26,075 bases of DNA from contig JBDZWC010000032.1 of assembly GCA_040256005.1 (NCBI GenBank), forward strand, positions 1 to 26,075. Reading direction: 5' to 3'. Source of the stretch: Deinococcaceae bacterium. GTDB taxonomy: Bacteria; Deinococcota; Deinococci; Deinococcales; Trueperaceae. The position numbers were made by a program, and so were the translations under genes. Position 1 is the first letter of the stretch. Every line of letters starts with the position of its first letter. The notes below the pieces were generated by a model. That model searched no databases, was not told where the DNA came from, and saw only the letters and a program-made list of their open reading frames with translations. Positions 1 to 11,322 of the stretch are shown here, in pieces.

Positions 1-1842
1 CGGCTCGGCGCCGGGTTCGATGACGCCCGAACCATCGTCCAGGTAGACCTCGACCGTTATCTCGTCGTGCACTTCGGGCGTGATGGCGGCCGGCTCGTTG
101 GCGAGGTAGAAGATCTCGTCCGAGTGGCTGTCGAAGCTGTCGCCCTCCTGCAGGTAGTCGCTGATGAACCCGTACTCGCCCGTCGTCTGCCAGCGGTAGA
201 GGTACGCGCCGCCGTCCAGAGGCTCGTCGATGACGACGTTGAACACCTGGCTGGGAGCGACGAGGCGCTGGACCTGACCCTCGTGCGGGCGTATCTCGGC
301 CCGGGTCTGGAGCCGGATGGGGTCGTAGGTCTCGGCTGGCCCGTTGCTGCCCATGTCGTAGAGCATCGCGACGATGTCGGCGCTGCTCATCAGGGCGTCG
401 ACGACCGCCAACACACCGGCCGCCTTGGCCATGGTGCCCATGTAGGCGCGGGCGCTCTGGAGACCGCTGGACGATGGTGCCGGTAGATCGAGGCTCTGTC
501 GCGTGTGTTCAACCAGCTCGTAGAAGTAGGTGCTGTCGGAGCCCAGCGCGGCGCGCTCTATGGCGGCGGTCATCGCCTTCGCCCTGTCGCCGCTGATGGG
601 GTTGGTGATGCCGTCGGCGGCCAGGACGGGGGCGGACGCGGCCCTGACATCGGCAGAGTGAGCGGCGACGTTCGCGTACGCGACCTGACTGGTGACGCCG
701 AACGCCATCGTCGACATGAGCGGGAAGAGGAGCGACGTCCACCAAGTCTCCCGGCTCAGGTCGTCCAGGATCGCGTCCCACTGCGGGCGGTAGGGGAAGA
801 AGCGCGAGTCGGTGAAGATCGGCGGCGTGGCTCCCGGTATCAACGATGGGGCCAGCAGCACCGCCGTGTAGTAGGTTCGCGTGCTGCCTTCCAGTAGCGG
901 GAGTGCGACGCTGTCTGACTCGATGGGCTCGAGCGGCGAGCCCCCTCCGCCCAGCGCGTCCTCCAGGGCCAGGAACAGGTTGATCGAACGTGTGGGTGGC
1001 ACGCTGACGGCCTCCCCGACCGCCCGGCCGTTCGACAACATGGTGACCGGCCCCTCCTCGGACTTCACGCCGGTCTGGTAAAGGAGCAGGCGCGCCGGCC
1101 GGCGTAGCGTGTTCTGTACCTTGACGCCGAGCCCATCGTCGCTGATCAACAGGTCGAAACCACCGCGAACGCCGGGATCCGTGATGATCACGTTGCCGCT
1201 CCCCTGGACGTCATGCGGCAAGGCGGGTGGGCCCGCCAGGGCCGACACCTGCGCCGCAACGGCTTCGCGCCGCGCTGCGATGGCGTCGCGCGCGGCCAAC
1301 ACGGCATCGACGATACGCGTGTCGCCGGTCGCCAGGGCCCGTGGCTCGCTCGCCAACACGGTGCCGACCTGCGCCGCAAGACCAGGCAACACGACGTCGG
1401 CATCCACCAGGTCGAGAACATGGCGGGCGTCATCGGACATGGATGGCCCACCCACGGCCAGGTACAGGAGGGCGGCTGCCGTGGTACGTGCCGAAACGTC
1501 ACCGGTGGCAGCGGTATCGAGGAACCCCATGAGCACCAGATCACCGGCCTGATCCGTGACGGTCACGAGCCCGTCACCGGTCTTGGCCATCGGCACCGCG
1601 AACGTACCGTCCGAACTGACCTGAGAGCTCCCGAAGGGCCCCCGCGCCACCAGTTCCGTCAGGTCGAGCGCGCTCCCCGGCGGCAACACCACCTTGCCTT
1701 CGATCTGCAGGTCCGCCACCGGGCCGGGCCCGGCGCCGCAACCGGTCACGACCCACAGCGCCAGGCTCGAGCACAGCGCGAGCAGCACCGACCTGACGCG
1801 CGAAGGATGACCCCGTGGTCGGAACGCGAGGCGTGCAGGCAT
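1..1842 (-). CDS. Large uncharacterised lipoprotein, 3'-truncated by the window edge (>614 aa)
   Basis: Absent from the ORF track because it runs off the window. My translation from ATG 1842 (SD GCAGGAGG just upstream) reads MPARLAFRPRGHPSRVRSVLLALCSSLALWVVTG|CGAGPGP... and stays open to position 1 (...LDDGSGVIEPGAEP). Lipobox VTGC. Confidence 0.85.
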   Translation of the reverse strand, partial: MPARLAFRPRGHPSRVRSVLLALCSSLALWVVTGCGAGPGPVADLQIEGKVVLPPGSALDLTELVARGPFGSSQVSSDGTFAVPMAKTGDGLVTVTDQAGDLVLMGFLDTAATGDVSARTTAAALLYLAVGGPSMSDDARHVLDLVDADVVLPGLAAQVGTVLASEPRALATGDTRIVDAVLAARDAIAARREAVAAQVSALAGPPALPHDVQGSGNVIITDPGVRGGFDLLISDDGLGVKVQNTLRRPARLLLYQTGVKSEEGPVTMLSNGRAVGEAVSVPPTRSINLFLALEDALGGGGSPLEPIESDSVALPLLEGSTRTYYTAVLLAPSLIPGATPPIFTDSRFFPYRPQWDAILDDLSRETWWTSLLFPLMSTMAFGVTSQVAYANVAAHSADVRAASAPVLAADGITNPISGDRAKAMTAAIERAALGSDSTYFYELVEHTRQSLDLPAPSSSGLQSARAYMGTMAKAAGVLAVVDALMSSADIVAMLYDMGSNGPAETYDPIRLQTRAEIRPHEGQVQRLVAPSQVFNVVIDEPLDGGAYLYRWQTTGEYGFISDYLQEGDSFDSHSDEIFYLANEPAAITPEVHDEITVEVYLDDGSGVIEPGAEP

Positions 1843-1859
1843 GTTTCCTCCTGCGGTCA

Positions 1860-1891
1860 AGGCTGCCACGCCCCCGCTTAACCAGCGCTTA
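1860..1891 (-). promoter_or_regulatory. Tandem heptamer repeat TAAGCGC-N4-TAAGCGG, 8 nt upstream of a weak -10 (CAGCCT)
   Basis: Minus strand reads TAAGCGC tggt TAAGCGG gggcgtgg CAGCCT tgaccgc AGGAGG aaac ATG. Confidence 0.45.
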
Positions 1892-1942
1892 GCTGCCTGG
1901 TTCCCGCGGGCGAGACCAGCCCCCGCGTGTACGCTCGCTAGC

Positions 1943-2401
1943 GTGATGAACGCAGGACAGGTCAAGGCAGCGGTCGCCACATTGGGCTTGCCGGCCGGCC
2001 ACTGGGCCGTGCACGCCAGCGCCGTGCTGGTGCTGTATGGGCTCATAGACGCGGCGGGAGACGTGGACGTGGTCGCGCGGGGCCCGGCGTGGGATCGTGC
2101 CACGGATCTCGGCACCCCCAAGCGAGGCAAGGAGGACCTGTGCGTGAGCCTGCCCGGGCTGAACGTAGAGGTGTGGTCCGGCTGGATGGGCGAGGACGTG
2201 GACGCCCTGATCGACGGGGCGGTCGAGGTAGCCGGCGTGCCCTGCGTCGACCTCCGAGCGGTGCTGCGTTTCAAGGAGACCGCGGGCCGGCCCAAGGACG
2301 CGGCTCATCTGGCCGTTCTGCGGCGGCACCTGGAGGCCGAAGGGCGTAGCCGCTCCAGCGAACGCTCGGCCGGGCGGCGACAACGGCCGAAGCGGCGTTG
2401 A
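1943..2401 (+). CDS. Small nucleotidyltransferase-fold-like protein
   Basis: HASAVLVLYGL..GDVDVV (degenerate GS plus DxD motif) and a C-terminal GRPKD motif typical of small Pol-beta-like NTase family proteins. Likely start is GTG 1943 or ATG 1946, with TACGCT (1930-1935) 7 nt before the GTG (leaderless), not the 1841 start in the track. Confidence 0.65.
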   Translation: MMNAGQVKAAVATLGLPAGHWAVHASAVLVLYGLIDAAGDVDVVARGPAWDRATDLGTPKRGKEDLCVSLPGLNVEVWSGWMGEDVDALIDGAVEVAGVPCVDLRAVLRFKETAGRPKDAAHLAVLRRHLEAEGRSRSSERSAGRRQRPKRR

Positions 2402-2426
2402 CACCTCGAGAGGCCGCTGTTATTCT
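2398..2426 (+). promoter_or_regulatory. Sigma70-type promoter of the aspS leader
   Basis: TTGACA (2398-2403), 17-nt spacer, TG-extended TATTCT (2421-2426). The leader ATG follows 7 nt later. Confidence 0.85.
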
Positions 2427-2433
2427 CCCGCGC

Positions 2434-2496
2434 ATGTTCGTGGTCGCCCTGAACAATCCCGACGACGATCCCGCGACGAGGAGCCTCGGGGCGTAG
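2434..2496 (+). CDS. Asn/Asp-rich leader peptide MFVVALNNPDDDPATRSLGA (putative attenuator leader)
   Basis: ATG at the predicted TSS. Codons 7-12 are AAC AAT CCC GAC GAC GAT. TAG at 2494-2496. Lies between the promoter and a terminator hairpin upstream of the AspRS gene. Confidence 0.8.
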   Translation: MFVVALNNPDDDPATRSLGA

Positions 2497-2519
2497 CCGC
2501 GTACCACCCAGCACGACAC

Positions 2520-2552
2520 GGACCCCCGAGCCACCTCGGGGGTCCTTCCTTT
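2520..2552 (+). terminator. Attenuator terminator hairpin
   Basis: Perfect 11-bp stem GGACCCCCGAG-ccac-CTCGGGGGTCC followed by TTCCTTT, then SD AGGAGG (2553-2558). Confidence 0.8.
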
Positions 2553-2563
2553 AGGAGGCACCG

Positions 2564-3898
<1,335 letters not shown>

Positions 3899-3911
3899 GC
3901 GTGCGCATGGC

Positions 3912-3943
3912 TTGACGCTGCCTTGACGCCCATGGACTACGTT
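3912..3943 (+). promoter_or_regulatory. Tandem TTGACG box A plus -10 (putative SARP-activated promoter)
   Basis: TTGACGC tgcc TTGACGC ccatggac TACGTT. Confidence 0.7.
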
Positions 3944-3985
3944 CTTCCCAGCTAGCGCTCTTGGCGGTACCTAGAAGGAGGAACC

Positions 3986-4642
3986 ATGAGGCAGCGGAGG
4001 ACCATCGCTCTTGCCGTCCCGGCGGCGGCCCTGGCGCTCTCGGCCTGTGCCCCCACCACCACCGGCGGTGGAGGCGAGGACACCGCAGCTCTCACCGCGC
4101 CGTGCGTCCAGACGCCGCCTCCCACGGTCGCTATCGTCGATTTCCAGAACACCACCGGCACTTACGGGCTGACGGTCGTCGGCGTGGAGGAGGCGGCCTC
4201 CGCCCGCCTGATAACCCTGATGAAGGAGTCGGGCTGCTACGTCGTCGTCGAACGCAGCGAGCTGCTGACGATCATGCAGCAGCAGGGGCTCGAATCGATG
4301 GACCCGGTCGACCTGGCCAAGGCGGCTGGGGCTGGCTACGTGGTCACCGGAACCGTCACCAGGGCCACGATCGCCGAGCCGGGAGCCAGCCTCTTCGGCA
4401 TCACCTTGGGCGAGACGCGGGCGGACGTGGAGGTCGATGTCAGGGCGACCGACATCATCACCGGCGAGGTCATCGTGTCCATGGCCGGCACCGGTACGGC
4501 CAGCAGCCCCAACATCGCCGTCAGCAGCATCCCGAGGGTAGGTACGATCCGGTACGACGACCCCACGGTAGGTCCCCTGCTCGCTGACGCGGCGCAGGCA
4601 GCCGTCACCAAGGTCGTCGCTGCGATCCGAGCCGCCTTCTAG
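3986..4642 (+). CDS. CsgG/HfaB-family lipoprotein
   Basis: Lipobox LSAC; TVAIVDFQN...LITLM...YVVVERSEL...YVVTGTVT...VDVRATDIITGEVI pattern of the CsgG-like fold; SD AAGGAGG. Confidence 0.8.
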   Translation: MRQRRTIALAVPAAALALSACAPTTTGGGGEDTAALTAPCVQTPPPTVAIVDFQNTTGTYGLTVVGVEEAASARLITLMKESGCYVVVERSELLTIMQQQGLESMDPVDLAKAAGAGYVVTGTVTRATIAEPGASLFGITLGETRADVEVDVRATDIITGEVIVSMAGTGTASSPNIAVSSIPRVGTIRYDDPTVGPLLADAAQAAVTKVVAAIRAAF

Positions 4643-5985: not shown

Positions 5986-8900
5986 TCACGGCGACCCCGC
6001 CTCCACCCGCACGGAGCCGTCGCCGGGCACCCGCACGTCGTCGAACACCTCCACCGGGGAAGACAGCACCCTGACCGAGTACGTCCCCATGGGCAGCTCC
6101 ACGGTGTCGCCCACGCGGCCGGTCGCCACCAGCGCCCCCGCGGCGTCGTAGACCTCGAACGATGGCACCAGTGCCTCCGTGATGGCCTGGCTGAGCGTCT
6201 CGTACGACGTGACGTCTACGTAGGTGGCGCCCACCTCCGCGGCCAGACCCTCGAAGACAGCGAGCGACTCGGGGTCGAGTGCTAGGGAGACGATGGCGAT
6301 GGCCACGTCCCCGGCGGCGCGCAGCTCGCTCGCCGCGGCGGCAGGATCGCCTCCGCAGGACTCTGCGCCGTCCGTGATCAGGACGATCGTTCTGGGGCCG
6401 CCAGCCGCGTCGAGGTCCTCTGCCGCCAGCGTCAACGAGTCGGCGATCGCCGTCTGCGACAGCAGCTTGGGCTCTATCGCGCGCACAGCGGCGCGAGCCG
6501 CCTCCCTGTCCAGTGGCCCCAGCGGGACGTCGAGCCGCGTCTCGCAGGAGTTGGGTGCGACGTGGCCGAACGCCCGCAGGGCGAACGGCGTCCCGTCCGG
6601 CAGGATGTCACCCACGAGGGTCTCGAGAGCGCGGATCGCGGCTTCGATGCGCGGCTCGCCGCTGGGCAGTGGCTGGCCCATCGAGCCCGAGGCGTCGAAG
6701 ATCACCTCTACGGCACCGCCGACGGCTCCCTCGGCCACGGTGACGGTAAGGGTGCCCGGTCCAGGAGGTGCCCTGAAGCCGGTCGTGACCTCCACCGCGT
6801 AGCGCTTGGGTCGCCGCAGTAGGCACGAGGCGCGCGCGAACCCGGCGTCGAAGCTACCGACACCGTCGGTCATGTCGTACCTGCCGGAGTTCACCGCGGC
6901 CCAGTCCTGCATGAGGTCCTGGGCGTCGTCGCTGCCGCCCGAGCTGATCTCGAACGTGAACACCCTCGGGCGAACGGACTCGAGGGCAGACCAGAGCTCC
7001 TCCGTGAGCTCGTAGCCGCCGGTCTCCGCGTCGGTGATGAAGAGGATCGCCTTCGTACCGTCCCGCCCCGCCAGCGCCTTGGTGGCCACCAGGAGAGCGT
7101 TAATGGCGTTGCTGGAGTCCGCCCGCCGTGGGTCGAACTCGGCGATGGCCCGTTGCACGCGCTCCGTGTCGCTTGACCAGTAGGGCAGGACCCACAGCGG
7201 CGACGGGTCGTTGAAGGCCAGCACCTGCACCGCCTCCCTGTCGCCGTCGACGTCGCGCGCGAACGCGGCCAGGGAGCTGTACGTGATGGGGCGGTACGGT
7301 CCCACGGACCCGCTCGTGTCCCACGAGAAGACGACGGTGCGCTTCGGTTCTTCCAGTCCCAGGTAGTACTCGCCAGCCTCGACGAAGGCGCTCAACACGA
7401 CCGCCGTCCCGTCCTCACGCCGGTCGAACGCGACGGGTCGCCCTGCGGCGTCCAGGAGGCTGTAGGTGTACGCGATGGCGGGATCACCCTCCAGGCGCAG
7501 GTCGACCACGTTCTCGCCCTCGCTCACCGTGAACACGTACCAGTCCACGTCCTCGCCCACCGCCACGCTGCCGGAGACGCGCACGCCCGGCGTCAGCCGT
7601 GAGGCGCTCTCCGGATCGTCGCCGCCGTCCACCGCTTCCGGCGGCGCGACTGCCGCGCCGGTGGCGCTCCACTCGAACGGGCCCCGCCTGGACATGTTCC
7701 CCCACTCGGCCAGGGCAGAGAGGTACTCACCGTCAACCGCTGCCTCGAAGACCGCGATGTCGGCAGGGGCGCTCACGTTCCGGACGTCCTCGGGCTTGGG
7801 CGCCGTGAAGCGCAGGTAGCGCGCCCACACCGGTTCGTCCAGGTCCGCCCGCATCGTGAGCCCGGACGACAGATCCCACTCGCCCACCGGTGTCCAAGGT
7901 CCGGCGGGCCCGTCGAGGCTCGACTCGACTAGGATCCTGTCGAACCGTTCCCGCGCCTCGGGGCTGTCCGTCCACTCGATCGCGCCGACCTGCGCCGCCC
8001 TCCCGTGCTGGAACCCCACGACGAACGCGAAGGCGTCGTAGCCCTCCAGGTCGATCCTCCTCACGGAGCCTCCCGGCGTCAGCACATCCCGGCCCCGACT
8101 CGGCAGCAGCGGCCGCGACCACACGACGTGGCCACCCAGCTCGGGCGCGGAGAGGTCGAGGCCCGCGAAGAGGCGAACGTCCGCGGCGATGAGCCGCCAC
8201 TCGCCGACGTAACCGTCTCCGCCGCCTTGACTCGACTCGAACACGAGCCTGGCGTACCGGGCCGTGACCGGCTCCTCGAAGAGGAAGGCCTGCTCGTATC
8301 GTGCCGACTCCAGCTCGCCCACGAGCACGGTCTCGAAGCTCTCGCCGTCCAGGGACGTCTCGATGCGGAACCCCCTCAGCTGGCGCTCGGGGGCGGCATC
8401 TGCTCGAGGGTCGAGGGTCGTGCCGACCAGGACCACCGGCCCGTCGGAGGCTAGGCGGAAGGTGGGGCTGTGATCGGCGCCCACCGCGCCTCCCGTGTTG
8501 ATCGCCGTCCGGCCGTCGATGAGCGCCGGGTCCCTGTTCCTGATGTCTTCACCGATCGGCTCAGCGCCGAACCCCGCCCAAAGGGCGTCCGGCCTCCCCA
8601 GCAGCTCGGTAGGCAACGGCCAGTACGAGAAGACACCCACCGGGGAAGCCTCGCAGCGGAGGGCGACCGAGGTCTCGGCCACGGCCCGGGCTTGAGCGGA
8701 CGTGGCGGCCGCCTGCAGCAACAGCGGTACCTGATCGACGACGTCCGCCGGCACGAGCAACCGTACAGGAGCCGCGACGCTCTGTCCGGGTGGCACCTCC
8801 ACCTCCCGTGGCGCCTCGATCCTGACGCGGGCGTCGCTGCCGGCGACCTCCAGGCCGACCGTGGCGGCCTGGGTGCCGTCGTTCCTGACGGTCACCGTTC

Positions 8901-11322
8901 CGGTGACGGTCTGGCCCTCGTGCCAGTACGCCGCGAGCTCGGTGGCGTCCAGTGCCAGTTCCACGCCCAGCGCTCCCGCTTCGCGAGGCACCAGCGACGC
9001 GGGGTCCGGCGGGCTGCCGAAGGCGACGGCGAGGTCGTAGCTGCCGCGTCCGGACAGCCTCAGGTGGGTCGGTTCGCCGCCAGGCAGCATGAACAGGACG
9101 GCGCCGTCCTCCGCTGCTGTGCGTCGCAGGCTGCGATCGGCGAGGACGTCGACGTTGACCGGGCCGGAGGCGGACACGTCGACCCGCAGTTCGGTGTCCG
9201 CCTCGAACACCGGCAGCCGGTAGAAGTCCGGGCCCGAGGTTTCGCCCACGAGCCCGCTCCACGACAGGTTCGCGGGCAACGGCGCGGCCTGGTCCCGAGA
9301 GTCGTTGGGCTCGTAGTCCGCCGGGTCGTACAACGGTCCGAGGAGCGTCAGGCGTAGCTGGTAGTAGCCCGTGGGCACGCCCTCCGCCTCCGGCGGCCTC
9401 AGTTCGACAGCGTGGTCACCTGCCAGGAACCGGCGCTCAGCCACCACGCGGGTCCCCGAGGCCTCCGGCACGGCGGCGTACGCTCTGCCGTCGACCACGA
9501 CAGGGATCGCCAGGTCGCCCTCGGCCGGTAAGAGTTCCAGCCGAACGTGCTGGTCGGTGTCCAGGTGGAAGCGGTAGAAGTCCCGGTCGTCGAGGGAGCT
9601 GAGCCGGCCCACGTGGGTAGCGCCCGGCTGCAGGCGGTTCGCGCGCTCGGGTCGGTCGTTGGGCTCCAGCTCGAGCTGCCCGGGCGGAGGCGGAGGCGGC
9701 GCCGGCAACGGGGCTTCCATGTCCTCATCGGCGGCATCGACAGCGTCCTCCGCCGCGGCCGGCGGGGCGGCGACCAACGCTCGATCCGGTGCCGGGGCGT
9801 CGGCGCTGGGCTCCGGAGCCGGCGCAGGACCCAGCGACAGCCCCCTCACCGCGTACGCACCCTCTCCGCCGGTGACGCGCACGAAGTGCGCGCCCGGCAG
9901 CAGGGTCAGGTCGTCGAGCCTCACGCGCCGTTCACCCGTGGATCGTGCCTGGACCTCGCCGCTGGCGCCCAGCAGCTCGACCGCTGCCACGCCCTCGCCC
10001 ACGGCCTGGATCCGGAACCGTTGTGCCTCGCCGGTCACGCGCAGGAGGAACACGTCCGAGTCCTGTGGGGCGAGCTCGCCGCGCACCTGCAGGTCGGGCC
10101 CAACCTCCGTGGCGCTGTCGACCGTGTCGTTGGGCTCGCGCTCGAAGCCGTCCGCCACCGGGGCGCCCGGGCGCAGCTCGAGCGTGTACTCTCGCTCCCT
10201 CGCGGCGGAGAGACGCAGGAAGTACGTACCTGCGCCGAGGTGCAGGCTGTCCGAGGTGCCGGTCACGCCCCTGCGCTCCTGCAACAGGGTCTCCTCGGCG
10301 TCGTAGAGCCTCAGCTCCACGACGTCCGACGCCTCGAGGACCAGGTCCCACGCGGCCTCGGCGTGCGAGTCGTCTACCTCGATGCGGAACACGTCCCTAC
10401 CTTCGAGCACGCCGGCCACGGTGCCACCCGGCTCGAGCCGCGTGGCCGTGCTGACGTCGTCGTTGGGCTCCGCCTCCACGCCGTCCGCGAACCTCCCGGC
10501 GCGCTCCAACGCGACCCTGATCGCGCTGCCAGCCGGCCAGGGAGCGTTAGGCGCGACGGTCACGACGTACTCGCCCGGTATGAGGCCGAGGTTCTTCAGC
10601 CGCACCGGCGCTGCGCCGGAACCGCTGTCTTCGGCGACCATGCCTGCGGGGCCGGTCACGGCGATGTCGGCCATGACGCCAAGGGGTACCTGCAGGGTGG
10701 CGTTCCAGGCGAACCCGGAGCCTTCTTCGTCGATCGCGAACCGGGCCTCAAGTCCCTCGCCGACCACCGCGTAGACGTCGAACTCTCCGGGGTAGGTACG
10801 ACGCGCATCGTGCTCTCGTGACGGCGGGCTGAGGTCCTGGGGCTGCAGGTGAACGACGTAATCACCCGTTCCGGTGCCGGAGACCCCCAAGACGTAGCGG
10901 CCGGGTGCCACGAGGAACTCGTCCGACTCCGACCACGAGCCGTCCCGCGTGCCGAAGCGGAGGAGGCTGTCGAACGCAGCTACGCTCTCGCCGCCGGTCG
11001 CGAACTCGACGGCGAACACATCCACCTGGGTGAGGGCGCCGCGAGGGCCCTCGATCCCCAGCGTCCATGCCCGCGTCGCGGCCGCCTCGTCCACCACCCA
11101 CGTGAAGGCGTCCTGGTCGCTCTCTGCCAGCACCCCAGCCAGGCAGACGAAAGGTGTAGCGGCGCCGCCGACCCCGGCAGCTGCGTCCGGACCGAGCCGG
11201 GTCGCCTCGGCCGGCGTATCGTTCGGCTCCACCTCCACGGTGCACTCCTGGGCCATGGCGCTGCTCGCCACGGCCAGGAAGCCACCGAGGATCACCAGCG
11301 CCGCGCGACATAGCCTCGTCAT
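5986..11322 (-). CDS. Secreted 1778-aa multidomain protein: EPND/PPC-like repeats, Ig-like, discoidin-like (F5/8C) x2, vWA x2
   Basis: Signal peptide AMA|QE. Five (E/D)xEPND motifs followed by D.D.[FY] strands; Pro-rich linker; FRIETSLDG...ARYARL and VESSLDGP...ARYLRF discoidin-like motifs; MIDAS motifs WDTSGSV...FITDA and FDASGSM...T...LITDG. Confidence 0.85.
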   Translation of the reverse strand: MTRLCRAALVILGGFLAVASSAMAQECTVEVEPNDTPAEATRLGPDAAAGVGGAATPFVCLAGVLAESDQDAFTWVVDEAAATRAWTLGIEGPRGALTQVDVFAVEFATGGESVAAFDSLLRFGTRDGSWSESDEFLVAPGRYVLGVSGTGTGDYVVHLQPQDLSPPSREHDARRTYPGEFDVYAVVGEGLEARFAIDEEGSGFAWNATLQVPLGVMADIAVTGPAGMVAEDSGSGAAPVRLKNLGLIPGEYVVTVAPNAPWPAGSAIRVALERAGRFADGVEAEPNDDVSTATRLEPGGTVAGVLEGRDVFRIEVDDSHAEAAWDLVLEASDVVELRLYDAEETLLQERRGVTGTSDSLHLGAGTYFLRLSAAREREYTLELRPGAPVADGFEREPNDTVDSATEVGPDLQVRGELAPQDSDVFLLRVTGEAQRFRIQAVGEGVAAVELLGASGEVQARSTGERRVRLDDLTLLPGAHFVRVTGGEGAYAVRGLSLGPAPAPEPSADAPAPDRALVAAPPAAAEDAVDAADEDMEAPLPAPPPPPPGQLELEPNDRPERANRLQPGATHVGRLSSLDDRDFYRFHLDTDQHVRLELLPAEGDLAIPVVVDGRAYAAVPEASGTRVVAERRFLAGDHAVELRPPEAEGVPTGYYQLRLTLLGPLYDPADYEPNDSRDQAAPLPANLSWSGLVGETSGPDFYRLPVFEADTELRVDVSASGPVNVDVLADRSLRRTAAEDGAVLFMLPGGEPTHLRLSGRGSYDLAVAFGSPPDPASLVPREAGALGVELALDATELAAYWHEGQTVTGTVTVRNDGTQAATVGLEVAGSDARVRIEAPREVEVPPGQSVAAPVRLLVPADVVDQVPLLLQAAATSAQARAVAETSVALRCEASPVGVFSYWPLPTELLGRPDALWAGFGAEPIGEDIRNRDPALIDGRTAINTGGAVGADHSPTFRLASDGPVVLVGTTLDPRADAAPERQLRGFRIETSLDGESFETVLVGELESARYEQAFLFEEPVTARYARLVFESSQGGGDGYVGEWRLIAADVRLFAGLDLSAPELGGHVVWSRPLLPSRGRDVLTPGGSVRRIDLEGYDAFAFVVGFQHGRAAQVGAIEWTDSPEARERFDRILVESSLDGPAGPWTPVGEWDLSSGLTMRADLDEPVWARYLRFTAPKPEDVRNVSAPADIAVFEAAVDGEYLSALAEWGNMSRRGPFEWSATGAAVAPPEAVDGGDDPESASRLTPGVRVSGSVAVGEDVDWYVFTVSEGENVVDLRLEGDPAIAYTYSLLDAAGRPVAFDRREDGTAVVLSAFVEAGEYYLGLEEPKRTVVFSWDTSGSVGPYRPITYSSLAAFARDVDGDREAVQVLAFNDPSPLWVLPYWSSDTERVQRAIAEFDPRRADSSNAINALLVATKALAGRDGTKAILFITDAETGGYELTEELWSALESVRPRVFTFEISSGGSDDAQDLMQDWAAVNSGRYDMTDGVGSFDAGFARASCLLRRPKRYAVEVTTGFRAPPGPGTLTVTVAEGAVGGAVEVIFDASGSMGQPLPSGEPRIEAAIRALETLVGDILPDGTPFALRAFGHVAPNSCETRLDVPLGPLDREAARAAVRAIEPKLLSQTAIADSLTLAAEDLDAAGGPRTIVLITDGAESCGGDPAAAASELRAAGDVAIAIVSLALDPESLAVFEGLAAEVGATYVDVTSYETLSQAITEALVPSFEVYDAAGALVATGRVGDTVELPMGTYSVRVLSSPVEVFDDVRVPGDGSVRVEAGSP

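What the first reader, a model, noticed from the sequence alone, without database searches (positions are those of the whole stretch)
2398..2566. Leaderless Asn/Asp leader-peptide attenuator upstream of the non-discriminating AspRS
Seen: promoter TTGACA-17-TATTCT; ATG 7 nt downstream; a 20-codon ORF with Asn-Asn-Pro-Asp-Asp-Asp; CTCGGGG (2485-2491) complementary to CCCCGAG in the left arm of an 11-bp terminator (2520-2545 plus TTCCTTT); and a competing CGAG-gagc-CTCG hairpin. The last Asp codon ends 15 nt before the antiterminator strand. A ribosome stalled on Asn/Asp codons would leave that strand free, whereas one reaching TAG would mask it. Known: this logic is that of trp/his/pheM-type attenuation, and ND-AspRS charges both tRNA-Asp and tRNA-Asn (Asn-tRNA is then made by GatCAB). 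Inference: one leader monitors both outputs of a dual-specificity synthetase, which a single-specifier T-box cannot do. I do not know of a described example, but could not search.
Basis: partly seen in the sequence, partly recalled or inferred. Interest (0 to 1): 0.9.

Follow-up and report, generated by a model that had tools for sequence, protein, structure and literature searches.

The report
Asn/Asp leader-peptide attenuator before aspS2
A 20-codon mini-gene rich in asparagine and aspartate codons, followed by a switchable transcription stop, sits in front of the enzyme that starts tRNA-bound asparagine synthesis; it is real and conserved across the Deinococcus-Thermus group, but a counterpart was already listed for Deinococcus deserti in 2014.

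Summary
The same design lies upstream of the orthologous archaeal-type aspS in 41 of 46 family relatives and in 19 of 19 loci from the four other families of the order. That design is a promoter, an ATG 6-11 nt after the -10 box, a short ORF with an Asn/Asp codon cluster, a G-run at the stop codon complementary to the terminator's left arm, and a terminator.

Asp+Asn make up 24.3% of uORF residues, against 1.8% and 3.4% in the other two frames. With a modelled ribosome on the first Asn/Asp codon, the antiterminator forms in 59 of 60 leaders. With the ribosome on the stop codon it forms in 2 of 60.

The genome has AsnRS, bacterial AspRS and GatB, and no AsnA or clear AsnB. AspRS2 is therefore probably its asparagine-synthesis entry step.

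The element is not new. De Groot et al. 2014 (PMC4007540, Table S9) list a leaderless peptide, MFAALANNNDNDPH, before the non-discriminating AspRS of D. deserti, with a mapped start site. This scan has also reported the element on other DNA. No functional test was found in print. Verdict: a real, ordinary-mechanism attenuator and a new member of a known kind.

The parts
2398..2403 (+). -35 hexamer TTGACA; it overlaps the stop codon of the upstream + strand ORF 1841-2401
   Evidence: TTGAC is kept at the same place in the relatives' leaders
2418..2426 (+). extended -10 element, TG-n-TATTCT (-10 hexamer at 2421-2426)
   Evidence: the TAnnnT type is kept in the relatives, 6-11 nt before the uORF ATG
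2434..2496 (+). leaderless uORF, 20 codons plus TAG: MFVVALNNPDDDPATRSLGA
   Evidence: the frame is kept in 60 leaders; the orthologous D. deserti peptide has its start site at the A of the ATG
2452..2469 (+). sensor codons AAC AAT CCC GAC GAC GAT (2 Asn, 3 Asp)
   Evidence: D+N are 24.3% of uORF residues in frame against 1.8% and 3.4% out of frame; U-ending codons are over-used
2439..2452 (+). segment 1: pairs with segment 2 in RNA free of ribosomes, and would be covered by a ribosome stalled on the Asn/Asp codons
   Evidence: minimum-energy folds; this pairing is not conserved in all relatives (24 of 60 have the strand paired mostly upstream)
2484..2503 (+). segment 2, the antiterminator strand (core CTCGGGG at 2485-2491); it overlaps the last uORF codons and the stop codon
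   Evidence: duplex with 2516-2530 at -19.9 kcal/mol, 0 of 200 shuffles as good; pair counts
2520..2530 (+). segment 3, the left arm of the terminator (GGACCCCCGAG)
2535..2545 (+). segment 4, the right arm of the terminator (CTCGGGGGTCC)
2546..2552 (+). interrupted U-tract TTCCTTT
2553..2558 (+). Shine-Dalgarno sequence AGGAGG of aspS2
2564..3898 (+). aspS2: archaeal-type, non-discriminating aspartate--tRNA(Asn) ligase, 444 aa
   Evidence: Pfam tRNA-synt_2 plus OB anticodon domain; NF003483 at 530.5 bits against a cut-off of 353; best solved relative is T. thermophilus AspRS2, 1n9w/3kfu, E 1.1e-159

Best explanation
This is a ribosome-mediated (leader-peptide) transcription attenuator of the trp/his/pheM type, built on a leaderless mRNA.

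How it most likely works. Transcription starts at or next to the A of ATG 2434, and a 70S ribosome translates the 20-codon uORF.

When Asn-tRNA(Asn) and Asp-tRNA(Asp) are plentiful, the ribosome runs to TAG (2494-2496). There it covers CUCGGGG (2485-2491), so the left arm at 2520-2530 pairs with the right arm at 2535-2545. RNA polymerase then terminates at the U-tract, before aspS2.

When either charged tRNA is scarce, the ribosome stalls on AAC AAU CCC GAC GAC GAU (2452-2469). It covers segment 1 but leaves CUCGGGG free, and that strand pairs with the left arm as soon as the left arm is made. The terminator cannot form and aspS2 is transcribed.

The physiological logic follows from the genome's gene set. 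It has AsnRS, a bacterial-type AspRS and GatB, and no AsnA or clear AsnB. AspRS2 is therefore the entry step of tRNA-dependent asparagine synthesis, and the leader reports both that pathway's product (Asn-tRNA) and its substrate pool (Asp-tRNA).

What is shown and what is inferred. Shown: the sequence features, their conservation, and the folding geometry. Inferred: the start site, translation of the uORF, termination at 2546-2552, and the response to starvation.
For: 1. The anatomy is present in the window.

2. The design is conserved. By a fixed rule (TTGAC, 16-18 nt spacer, nAnnnT, ATG within 14 nt, ORF of at most 45 codons, hairpin downstream), 41 of 46 family-f1 loci and 17 of 19 loci from families f2-f5 have it. 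The last two of the 19 have it once the -35 requirement is dropped.

3. The signal is at the codon level. D+N are 245 of 1007 uORF residues in frame, against 19 of 1067 and 36 of 1067 in the other two frames. A 4-residue window holds at least 3 D/N in 49 of 60 leaders and at least 2 in 58 of 60. Synonymous codons vary between families (GAC/GAT, AAC/AAT), while uORF length ranges from 8 to 38 codons and the frame to the stop is always kept.

4. Terminator: 95.9% of cells are paired, 6 of 9 pairs change on both sides, and 0 of 500 shuffles reach the observed covariation score.

5. Antiterminator: 86.4% of cells are paired, 4 of 8 pairs change on both sides, and 0 of 500 shuffles reach the score. 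Three-way compensations can be seen in L008, L025, L022 and L059. In the other families the stem sequence differs, and the G-run next to the stop codon changes with it.

6. Geometry. With the ribosome's A site on the first D/N codon of the cluster and 12 nt masked downstream, at least 5 bp form between the upstream strand and the left arm in 59 of 60 nascent leaders. On the last D/N codon the figure is 55 of 60; on the stop codon it is 2 of 60. The contrast holds with 9 or 15 nt masked.

7. The covariance model finds one copy per genome, at aspS. It finds 1 hit in the window's own genome and hits in 32 of 36 f1 genomes.

8. Gene identity and pathway context are given. Background comes from passages of PMC4206432: D. 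radiodurans and T. thermophilus use the extra archaeal AspRS with GatCAB to make Asn on tRNA.

9. An ortholog has an experimentally mapped start site. It is D. deserti Deide_10019, MFAALANNNDNDPH, before the 'Aspartyl-tRNA synthetase, non-discriminating', with the start site at the A of the ATG (Tables S9 and S10 of PMC4007540).

10. In G000, asnS and gatB have a TAnnnT box 7 nt before their own ATG and no leader. In L006 and L009 the same promoter sits directly on the aspS ATG. This promoter-to-ATG spacing is therefore used for leaderless genes in this lineage.
Against: - There is no experimental datum for this organism. The only public RNA-labelled runs that hold the stretch are kept as contigs, which cannot show starts or ends.
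- The window's U-tract is interrupted (UUCCUUU). Two f4 loci (L070, L074) have no U-tract after the hairpin at all, so at least there the hairpin may act in another way.
- With a stalled ribosome, the full-length minimum-energy fold still contains the terminator in 52 of 60 leaders. Antitermination must therefore be kinetic, which is an assumption.
- Single-sequence support for the antiterminator duplex is modest: median z is -1.7, and 26 of 60 leaders have at most 10 of 200 shuffles as good. G-rich strands pair readily with C-runs.
- Alignment A5 was fitted to the model's terminator structure, so its pair counts lean towards that structure.
- Some leaders carry few sensor codons (L018 has one Asn; L060 has two Asp). 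Five of 46 f1 loci have no leader.
- The strong preference for AAT/GAT could reflect a constraint at the nucleotide level rather than codon choice.
- The 1:2 pairing seen in the window is not general.
Confidence: 0.78

Rival explanations
1. The switch acts on translation or mRNA stability rather than on transcription termination. Ribosome position on the uORF decides whether the strong hairpin just upstream of the Shine-Dalgarno sequence forms, and that changes initiation at aspS2 or the decay of its mRNA. Amino-acid sensing by the uORF is the same as in the best explanation.
For: In the window the hairpin ends 7 nt before AGGAGG and the U-tract is interrupted. L070 and L074 have the hairpin but no U-tract, and their aspS starts 12-21 nt after it.
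Against: Most leaders have clean U-tracts of 5-8 T right after the stem. In many leaders aspS lies 40-168 nt beyond the hairpin. The hairpin does not include the Shine-Dalgarno sequence.
Confidence: 0.1
2. The logic is the reverse, or the element simply senses translation in general. Either a stalled ribosome masks the G-run and so favours termination, or the uORF only reports whether ribosomes are engaged at all, with no Asn/Asp specificity.
For: In f3, f4 and f5 the last D/N codon lies only 2-7 nt from the G-run duplex. With a 15-nt downstream mask, the antiterminator forms in only 38 of 60 leaders when the ribosome sits on the last D/N codon.
Against: With the ribosome on the first D/N codon of the cluster, the antiterminator forms in 59-60 of 60 leaders at every mask length tried. 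In f1 the gap is commonly 13-14 nt. Lowering AspRS2 when Asn-tRNA is scarce makes no physiological sense. The specific enrichment of D/N codons is not explained by a general sensor.
Confidence: 0.06
3. The element is a structured RNA that binds a ligand, a tRNA or a protein (T-box-like or riboswitch-like), and the ORF is incidental.
For: The nucleotides of the GAYGAYAAT block and of CTCGGGGCNTAG are highly conserved within f1. The AAT/GAT bias is strong.
Against: No Rfam family matches: the best hit is 18 bits against a gathering score of 72.2. Across families the nucleotide sequence changes while the frame, the D/N codons and the stop-to-G-run geometry are kept. The region upstream of the D/N block varies in length and sequence but always stays in frame with an ATG at the promoter.
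Confidence: 0.03
4. The features are a chance promoter-like site, a chance ORF, and the terminator of the upstream gene.
For: The upstream + strand ORF ends at 2401, and a terminator downstream of it would not be surprising.
Against: The whole arrangement recurs in 60 loci from five families, including loci with different upstream genes. The hairpin lies 119 nt beyond the stop of the upstream ORF, and a promoter lies between them.
Confidence: 0.01

Closest known systems
Deide_10019, putative leader peptide of the non-discriminating aspartyl-tRNA synthetase gene of Deinococcus deserti (de Groot et al. 2014, Genome Biol Evol, PMC4007540, Tables S9 and S10; I read passages of the main text and part 122 of supplementary file 3)
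   Same: It is a leaderless short ORF immediately upstream of the non-discriminating AspRS. Its peptide, MFAALANNNDNDPH, has the same N-terminal MF(A/V) start and the same Asn/Asp cluster followed by Pro as the window's MFVVALNNPDDDP. It was predicted to act in transcription attenuation. The loci of family f2 fetched here carry near-identical peptides (MFAAHNNVNDDPC, MFVAPTNNSDNDPR).
   Different: It comes from a different family of the order. The D. deserti peptide has 14 residues and its stop codon precedes the G-run. In the window the uORF is 20 codons long and the antiterminator strand lies inside its last codons. The paper only lists the peptide: its main text has 0 occurrences of aspartyl, Asn or aspS, it draws no structure, and it reports no test.
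Classical leader-peptide attenuators of Proteobacteria (trpL, hisL, thrL, ilv leaders), and pheM before pheST as the aminoacyl-tRNA synthetase example (recalled; not checked in a call)
   Same: Both have a short ORF rich in the regulatory codons, mutually exclusive antiterminator and terminator pairings, and a choice between them set by ribosome position. The thr and ilv leaders also sense more than one amino acid. pheM likewise controls a synthetase gene.
   Different: Those leaders have a Shine-Dalgarno-led uORF, whereas this one starts at the 5' end of the transcript. The sensed residues here are Asn and Asp. The regulated enzyme is a misacylating synthetase that serves as an amino-acid biosynthesis step.
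Polycysteine leaderless short ORFs of mycobacteria (bioRxiv 10.1101/834739; only the search listing and the start of the abstract were seen)
   Same: They are leaderless short ORFs whose codon content lets them act as amino-acid-responsive attenuators of downstream genes.
   Different: They sense cysteine and occur in Actinobacteria. I did not read the paper's mechanism, so I cannot say whether an intrinsic terminator is involved.
T-box leaders of aspS and asnS in Firmicutes (recalled)
   Same: They are cis-acting leaders that tie synthetase expression to tRNA charging through a terminator/antiterminator choice.
   Different: A T-box binds one uncharged tRNA directly and needs no translation. 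No T-box match was found here, and the element is only about 119 nt long.

Membership tests
Ribosome-mediated (leader-peptide) transcription attenuator | A short ORF in the 5' leader, enriched in codons of the amino acid(s) linked to the regulated gene | tested here: met
   The window has 5 Asn/Asp codons among 20. Across 60 leaders D+N are 24.3% in frame against 1.8% and 3.4% out of frame.
Ribosome-mediated (leader-peptide) transcription attenuator | An intrinsic terminator (GC-rich hairpin plus U-tract) between the uORF and the structural gene | tested here: met
   The window has an 11-bp stem at 2520-2545 followed by TTCCTTT. The terminator forms in the minimum-energy fold of 58 of 60 leaders, with covariation. 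Caveats: the window's U-tract is interrupted, and L070 and L074 have none.
Ribosome-mediated (leader-peptide) transcription attenuator | An alternative pairing that excludes the terminator, with its availability set by where the ribosome sits | tested here: met
   This was tested by computation only. The duplex of 2484-2503 with 2516-2530 has -19.9 kcal/mol. With a modelled ribosome the antiterminator forms in 59 of 60 leaders (first D/N codon), 55 of 60 (last D/N codon) and 2 of 60 (stop codon).
Ribosome-mediated (leader-peptide) transcription attenuator | The uORF is translated | tested here: inconclusive
   Frame conservation argues for translation. The ATG lies 7 nt after the -10 box, as at the leaderless asnS and gatB of the same genome. 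There are no ribosome profiling or proteomic data for this organism.
Ribosome-mediated (leader-peptide) transcription attenuator | Read-through responds to the supply of the cognate charged tRNA | not testable with these tools
   This needs reporter or transcript measurements under Asn or Asp limitation.
Leaderless leader peptides of Deinococcus (de Groot et al. 2014), ND-AspRS member Deide_10019 | Transcription start at the A of the uORF's ATG | not testable with these tools
   The start was mapped in D. deserti. Here only the promoter geometry agrees. The public runs are contigs and show no starts.
Leaderless leader peptides of Deinococcus (de Groot et al. 2014), ND-AspRS member Deide_10019 | Lies immediately upstream of the non-discriminating AspRS gene and has an Asn/Asp-rich peptide | tested here: met
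   The peptides are compared.
T-box riboswitch | Stem I with a specifier loop and the conserved T-box sequence in the antiterminator | tested here: not met
   An Rfam scan of 2200-2700 at E up to 10 gave no T-box hit. The best hit of any family was 18 bits against a gathering score of 72.2.

The most novel reading that the evidence does not exclude
Across the whole Deinococcus-Thermus lineage, tRNA-dependent asparagine synthesis is governed at a single point. That point is a leaderless attenuator on aspS2 which reads both the pathway's product (Asn-tRNA) and its substrate (Asp-tRNA), and it does so through deliberately rare U-ending codons. asnS, gatB and the bacterial-type aspS carry no such control. 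If so, this would be the first leader-peptide attenuator shown to regulate an amino-acid biosynthesis step that takes place on a tRNA. Notes of this scan on other genomes, which I did not check, suggest that analogous Asn/Asp leaders before aspS arose in other phyla as well.
Probability: 0.55. Interest if true: 0.55.

Novelty: new member of a known kind. Interest (0 to 1): 0.38.

Why it matters
In bacteria that lack asparagine synthetase, the non-discriminating AspRS together with GatCAB is the only route to asparagine. How that route is regulated has not, as far as my searches show, been tested.

This element offers a concrete and conserved candidate mechanism. It could be tested in cultivable relatives. 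From recall, these include Truepera radiovictrix, Deinococcus radiodurans and Thermus thermophilus.

It also adds a well-supported example to two other cases. One is that leaderless mRNAs can carry classical attenuators. The other is that leader peptides, rather than T-boxes, control synthetase genes in this phylum. For genome annotation, the roughly 20-codon ORF and its RNA switch are worth marking, because gene callers miss them.

Tried and rejected
- **Rfam.** A scan of 2200-2700 at E up to 10 gave only chance-level hits: ftsZ-DE at 18 bits, plus mir-575, F6, sX12 and CcsR1. No known RNA family fits.
- **RNAalifold.** Run on the MAFFT alignment A2, it recovered only 4 terminator pairs, because the loop and one arm were misaligned between subgroups. 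I replaced it with a model-based alignment.
- **Covariance model R1.** It was built from f1 only. In the other four families it gave only weak or terminator-only hits, so it cannot be used to count the element there. Direct inspection of the aspS2 upstream regions was needed instead. One 36-bit hit in f5 (G099:C108:2116-2208) is not at aspS. By eye it lies at the 3' end of another gene and its terminator, and I treat it as a chance match.
- **Public RNA runs.** Thirteen runs were listed, all kept as contigs. I laid four of them, and they showed no starts, ends or joints. They say nothing about the start site or a premature 3' end. Two 151-nt contigs of the one clearly metatranscriptomic run cover 2171-2454, across the promoter. 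That could be DNA carry-over or read-through from upstream, and I draw no conclusion from it.
- **Archaeal-type aspS outside the phylum.** The two more distant loci I looked at (L106 at 41% identity and L107 at 44%) directly follow another gene and show no leader. Two loci are too few to say anything about other phyla.
- **AsnB.** The only candidate (G000:C226, 659 aa) scores 153.7 bits against a cut-off of 267.1. Its best match is a lasso-peptide cyclase model, also below that model's cut-off. I do not count it as an asparagine synthetase.
- **Promoter wording in the paper.** A look-up in PMC4007540 for its description of the -10 motif failed on a term-format error. I did not repeat it.
Full report
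**Observation**

- TTGACA at 2398-2403, a 17-nt spacer with a TG two bases before the -10 box, and TATTCT at 2421-2426;
- an ATG at 2434, 7 nt after the -10 box;
- a 20-codon ORF, MFVVALNNPDDDPATRSLGA, ending in TAG at 2494-2496;
- CTCGGGG at 2485-2491, complementary to CCCCGAG in the left arm of an 11-bp hairpin at 2520-2545;
- TTCCTTT after the hairpin, then AGGAGG, then the ATG of a 444-aa ORF at 2564.

The consensus scan of 1800-4200 found this one promoter-like site, where shuffles give a mean of 0.1. It listed the hairpin as one of two terminator-like sites. The 119-nt leader folds far better than its shuffles (z = -4.43; 0 of 200 shuffles as good).

Instead the CUCGGGGCG strand pairs with the 5' part of the uORF, about 2439-2452. 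That gives the window a four-segment layout like the trp leader.

**The downstream gene and its context**

The 444-aa ORF has the class II synthetase core and the OB anticodon domain. It passes the NCBIfam equivalog for aspartate--tRNA(Asn) ligase with 530.5 bits against a cut-off of 353. Its best solved relative is the non-discriminating archaeal-type AspRS2 of Thermus thermophilus (1n9w/3kfu, E 1.1e-159).

The window's genome is 96.8% complete by the tool's figure. It also holds:
- an AsnRS above cut-off;
- a bacterial-type AspRS above cut-off;
- GatB;
- no AsnA;
- only a sub-threshold AsnB-like protein, whose best match is a lasso-peptide cyclase model.

This is the gene set reported for D. 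radiodurans and T. thermophilus. In those species the extra archaeal AspRS works with GatCAB to make asparagine on tRNA (passages of PMC4206432).

Record titles of close relatives name Trueperaceae, Deinococcaceae or Deinococcales MAGs.

**Conservation**

I searched 61 related genomes with the protein, and all 61 had a match. I read the upstream regions of the 30 best loci.
- Twenty-five of the 30 have a short uORF placed 7-11 nt after a TTGAC-17/18-TAnnnT promoter. Twenty-four of these carry an Asn/Asp cluster, and L018 is degenerate.
- In L006 and L009 the same promoter sits directly on the aspS ATG, so the leader has been lost there and aspS itself is leaderless.
- L017, L024 and L030 show no such arrangement.

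A covariance model built from 16 of these leaders found one hit in the window's own genome, at 2454-2550. It found hits in 32 of 36 sampled genomes of the same family, and all 30 that became loci lie at aspS. In the other four families of the order it gave only weak or terminator-only hits.

That weakness reflects sequence divergence, not absence of the element. I fetched 300 nt upstream of the orthologous gene in 19 genomes of those four families, and every one shows the same logic with different letters. Examples are MRGLLNNDR, MLRADDNL, MGPLIGNNAG, MNAANNNVNDDPC and MKHIFNNRTDDDF. In each case the stop codon is followed at once by a G-run, and after that comes a hairpin whose left arm starts with a C-run.

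By a fixed rule, 41 of 46 f1 loci and 17 of 19 others qualify. One f1 locus, L054, was left out of the 47 because its contig ends before the gene. The two remaining loci, L068 and L071, qualify when the -35 requirement is dropped. This gives the 60 leaders used below.

**Is the ORF read as codons?**

In the 60 leaders, Asp+Asn are 245 of 1007 residues (24.3%) in the ORF's frame. In the other two frames they are 19 of 1067 and 36 of 1067.

A 4-residue window holds at least 3 Asp/Asn in 49 of 60 leaders, exactly 2 in 9, and 1 in 2. Three leaders have no Asn (L005, L020, L060), and two have no Asp (L018, L070).

uORF length runs from 8 to 38 codons, yet the ATG at the promoter, the cluster and the stop codon always share one frame.

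In 34 high-GC f1 loci the leaders use AAT for 35 of 54 Asn codons. The aspS coding sequence next door uses it for 11 of 189. The leaders use GAT for 35 of 87 Asp codons, against 61 of 710 in aspS. The loci are related, so the very small Fisher p-values overstate the case.

This bias could mean that slow, wobble-read codons were chosen for sensitivity. It could also reflect a nucleotide-level constraint, and I cannot tell the two apart.

**The switch**

On the model-based alignment of 41 f1 leaders (A5), the terminator has 95.9% of cells paired and 6 of 9 pairs with changes on both sides. This alignment leans towards the terminator structure.

The antiterminator I proposed pairs columns 31-38 with 74-81. 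It has 86.4% of cells paired and 4 of 8 pairs with changes on both sides. Between 0 and 10 of 500 shuffles reach the observed values, depending on the measure. Sliding the partner by one column drops pairing to 58-70%.

Compensations that involve all three strands can be read in L008 and L025 (CCCGGGG with CCCCGGG), in L022 (TTGGGG with CCCCAA) and in L059 (CTTCGGG with CCCGAAG).

The best duplex between the stop-codon region and the left arm has a median of -17.9 kcal/mol. The terminator hairpin has a median of -20.6. Single-sequence z-scores are modest, with a median of -1.7.

I modelled a ribosome as an unpaired block that reaches 12 nt past the first base of its A-site codon. I then folded each nascent leader up to the terminator loop and counted leaders in which at least 5 bp form onto the left arm:
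- A site on the first Asn/Asp codon of the cluster: 59 of 60;
- A site on the last Asn/Asp codon: 55 of 60;
- A site on the stop codon: 2 of 60.

With 9 nt masked the figures are 60, 59 and 7. With 15 nt masked they are 60, 38 and 0.

In full-length folds the terminator remains the minimum-energy structure in 52 of 60 leaders, even with a stalled ribosome. The choice must therefore be kinetic, as in classical attenuators, and this is an assumption I could not test.

**Mechanism**

The best-supported reading is a classical attenuator on a leaderless transcript. Fast translation carries the ribosome onto the antiterminator strand at the stop codon, and the terminator forms. Stalling at the Asn/Asp codons leaves that strand free to capture the left arm, and aspS2 is transcribed.

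Of the Asn-pathway genes I looked at in this genome, only aspS2 has the leader.
- asnS and gatB have a TAnnnT box 7 nt before their own ATG.
- The bacterial aspS directly follows another gene.

I put this reading at 0.78. The main rival keeps the sensing but moves the output to translation or mRNA stability (0.10). It rests on the weak U-tract here and on the two relatives that have none.

**What is known**

Searches for aspS, leader peptide, attenuation, asparagine, AspRS2 and related terms found no paper that discusses this element in its text.

De Groot et al. 2014 (PMC4007540) report 14 leaderless putative leader peptides in D. deserti. Their Table S9 lists Deide_10019, MFAALANNNDNDPH, with the regulated gene 'Aspartyl-tRNA synthetase, non-discriminating'. 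The table header and Table S10 place the transcription start at the A of its ATG. I read passages of the main text and one part of supplementary file 3. Supplementary file 1 was not searchable. The paper gives no structure and no test for this peptide.

The element in the window is therefore an ortholog, in another family, of an already listed prediction. Sensing two amino acids with one leader is, from recall, also textbook (the thr and ilv leaders).

This scan has reported the same element on other Deinococcus-Thermus genomes, with the same conclusion. It has also noted look-alikes before aspS in other phyla, which I did not check. I saw these notes only after reaching my own reading.

**Verdict**

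The element is a new member of a known kind.

The parts I did not find in print, as far as my searches reach, are these:
- the order-wide conservation;
- the terminator/antiterminator anatomy, with the antiterminator strand fixed at the stop codon;
- the ribosome-position geometry;
- the rare-codon bias;
- the two lineages that lost the leader.

Interest is moderate. The mechanism is ordinary, but it is an untested and readily testable control point for tRNA-dependent asparagine synthesis.

Noticed in passing
L006 and L009 (relatives of the same genus; upstream of aspS): The same TTGACA-17-TAGACT promoter sits 9 nt before the ATG of aspS itself, and the whole leader is missing. Two lineages seem to have deleted the attenuator and now make a leaderless aspS2 mRNA.
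   Followed up: partly
L081 (G000:C168, asnS) and L086 (G000:C42, gatB): Both genes have a TAGACT or TACACT box exactly 7 nt before their ATG, with no Shine-Dalgarno sequence and no leader. These look like leaderless mRNAs, and only aspS2 among the Asn-pathway genes inspected carries an attenuator.
   Followed up: partly
uORFs of 34 high-GC family-f1 loci, including window 2452-2469: The leaders strongly prefer the rare U-ending codons. AAT is 35 of 54 Asn codons, against 11 of 189 in aspS. GAT is 35 of 87 Asp codons, against 61 of 710. The cause may be sensitivity tuning or a nucleotide-level constraint; this is undecided.
   Followed up: partly
L070 and L074 (family f4): The hairpin after the uORF is 12-13 bp long but is followed by CAAAGCTT or AAACCTTA, not a U-tract, and aspS starts 12-21 nt later. 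The output of the switch may differ in these genomes.
   Followed up: no
window 1841-2401 (+): This upstream ORF of 186 aa has no Pfam hit. Its C-terminal part (the LRFKE...GRPKD...H motif) and its position directly before the aspS2 promoter recur in many f1 loci. Its stop codon lies inside the -35 box.
   Followed up: no
window 3986-4642 (+): A CsgG-family (curli assembly/transport) ORF lies just downstream of aspS2 (Pfam PF03783, E 3.4e-18).
   Followed up: no
window 5986-11322 (-): A very long ORF of 1778 aa was listed. I did not examine it.
   Followed up: no
G099:C108:2116-2208 (L080 617-709): The f1 leader model scores 36 bits (E 6.4e-8) here in a family-f5 genome, but the site is the 3' end of another gene plus its terminator, not aspS. 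It is probably a chance resemblance.
   Followed up: partly
G000:C177:24595-26043 and G000:C168:6085-6387: The bacterial-type aspS is split over two contig ends. Its 3' part lies about 0.9 kb upstream of asnS on the same strand, with one ORF between them. The aspS-asnS neighbourhood recurs in relatives.
   Followed up: no
stop codon to terminator spacer, e.g. L012, L013, L019, L023: Many f1 leaders have a small conserved GCGTCG...CGAC hairpin between the stop codon and the terminator, inside the antiterminator loop. It may be a pause or stabilising element. I did not analyse it.
   Followed up: no
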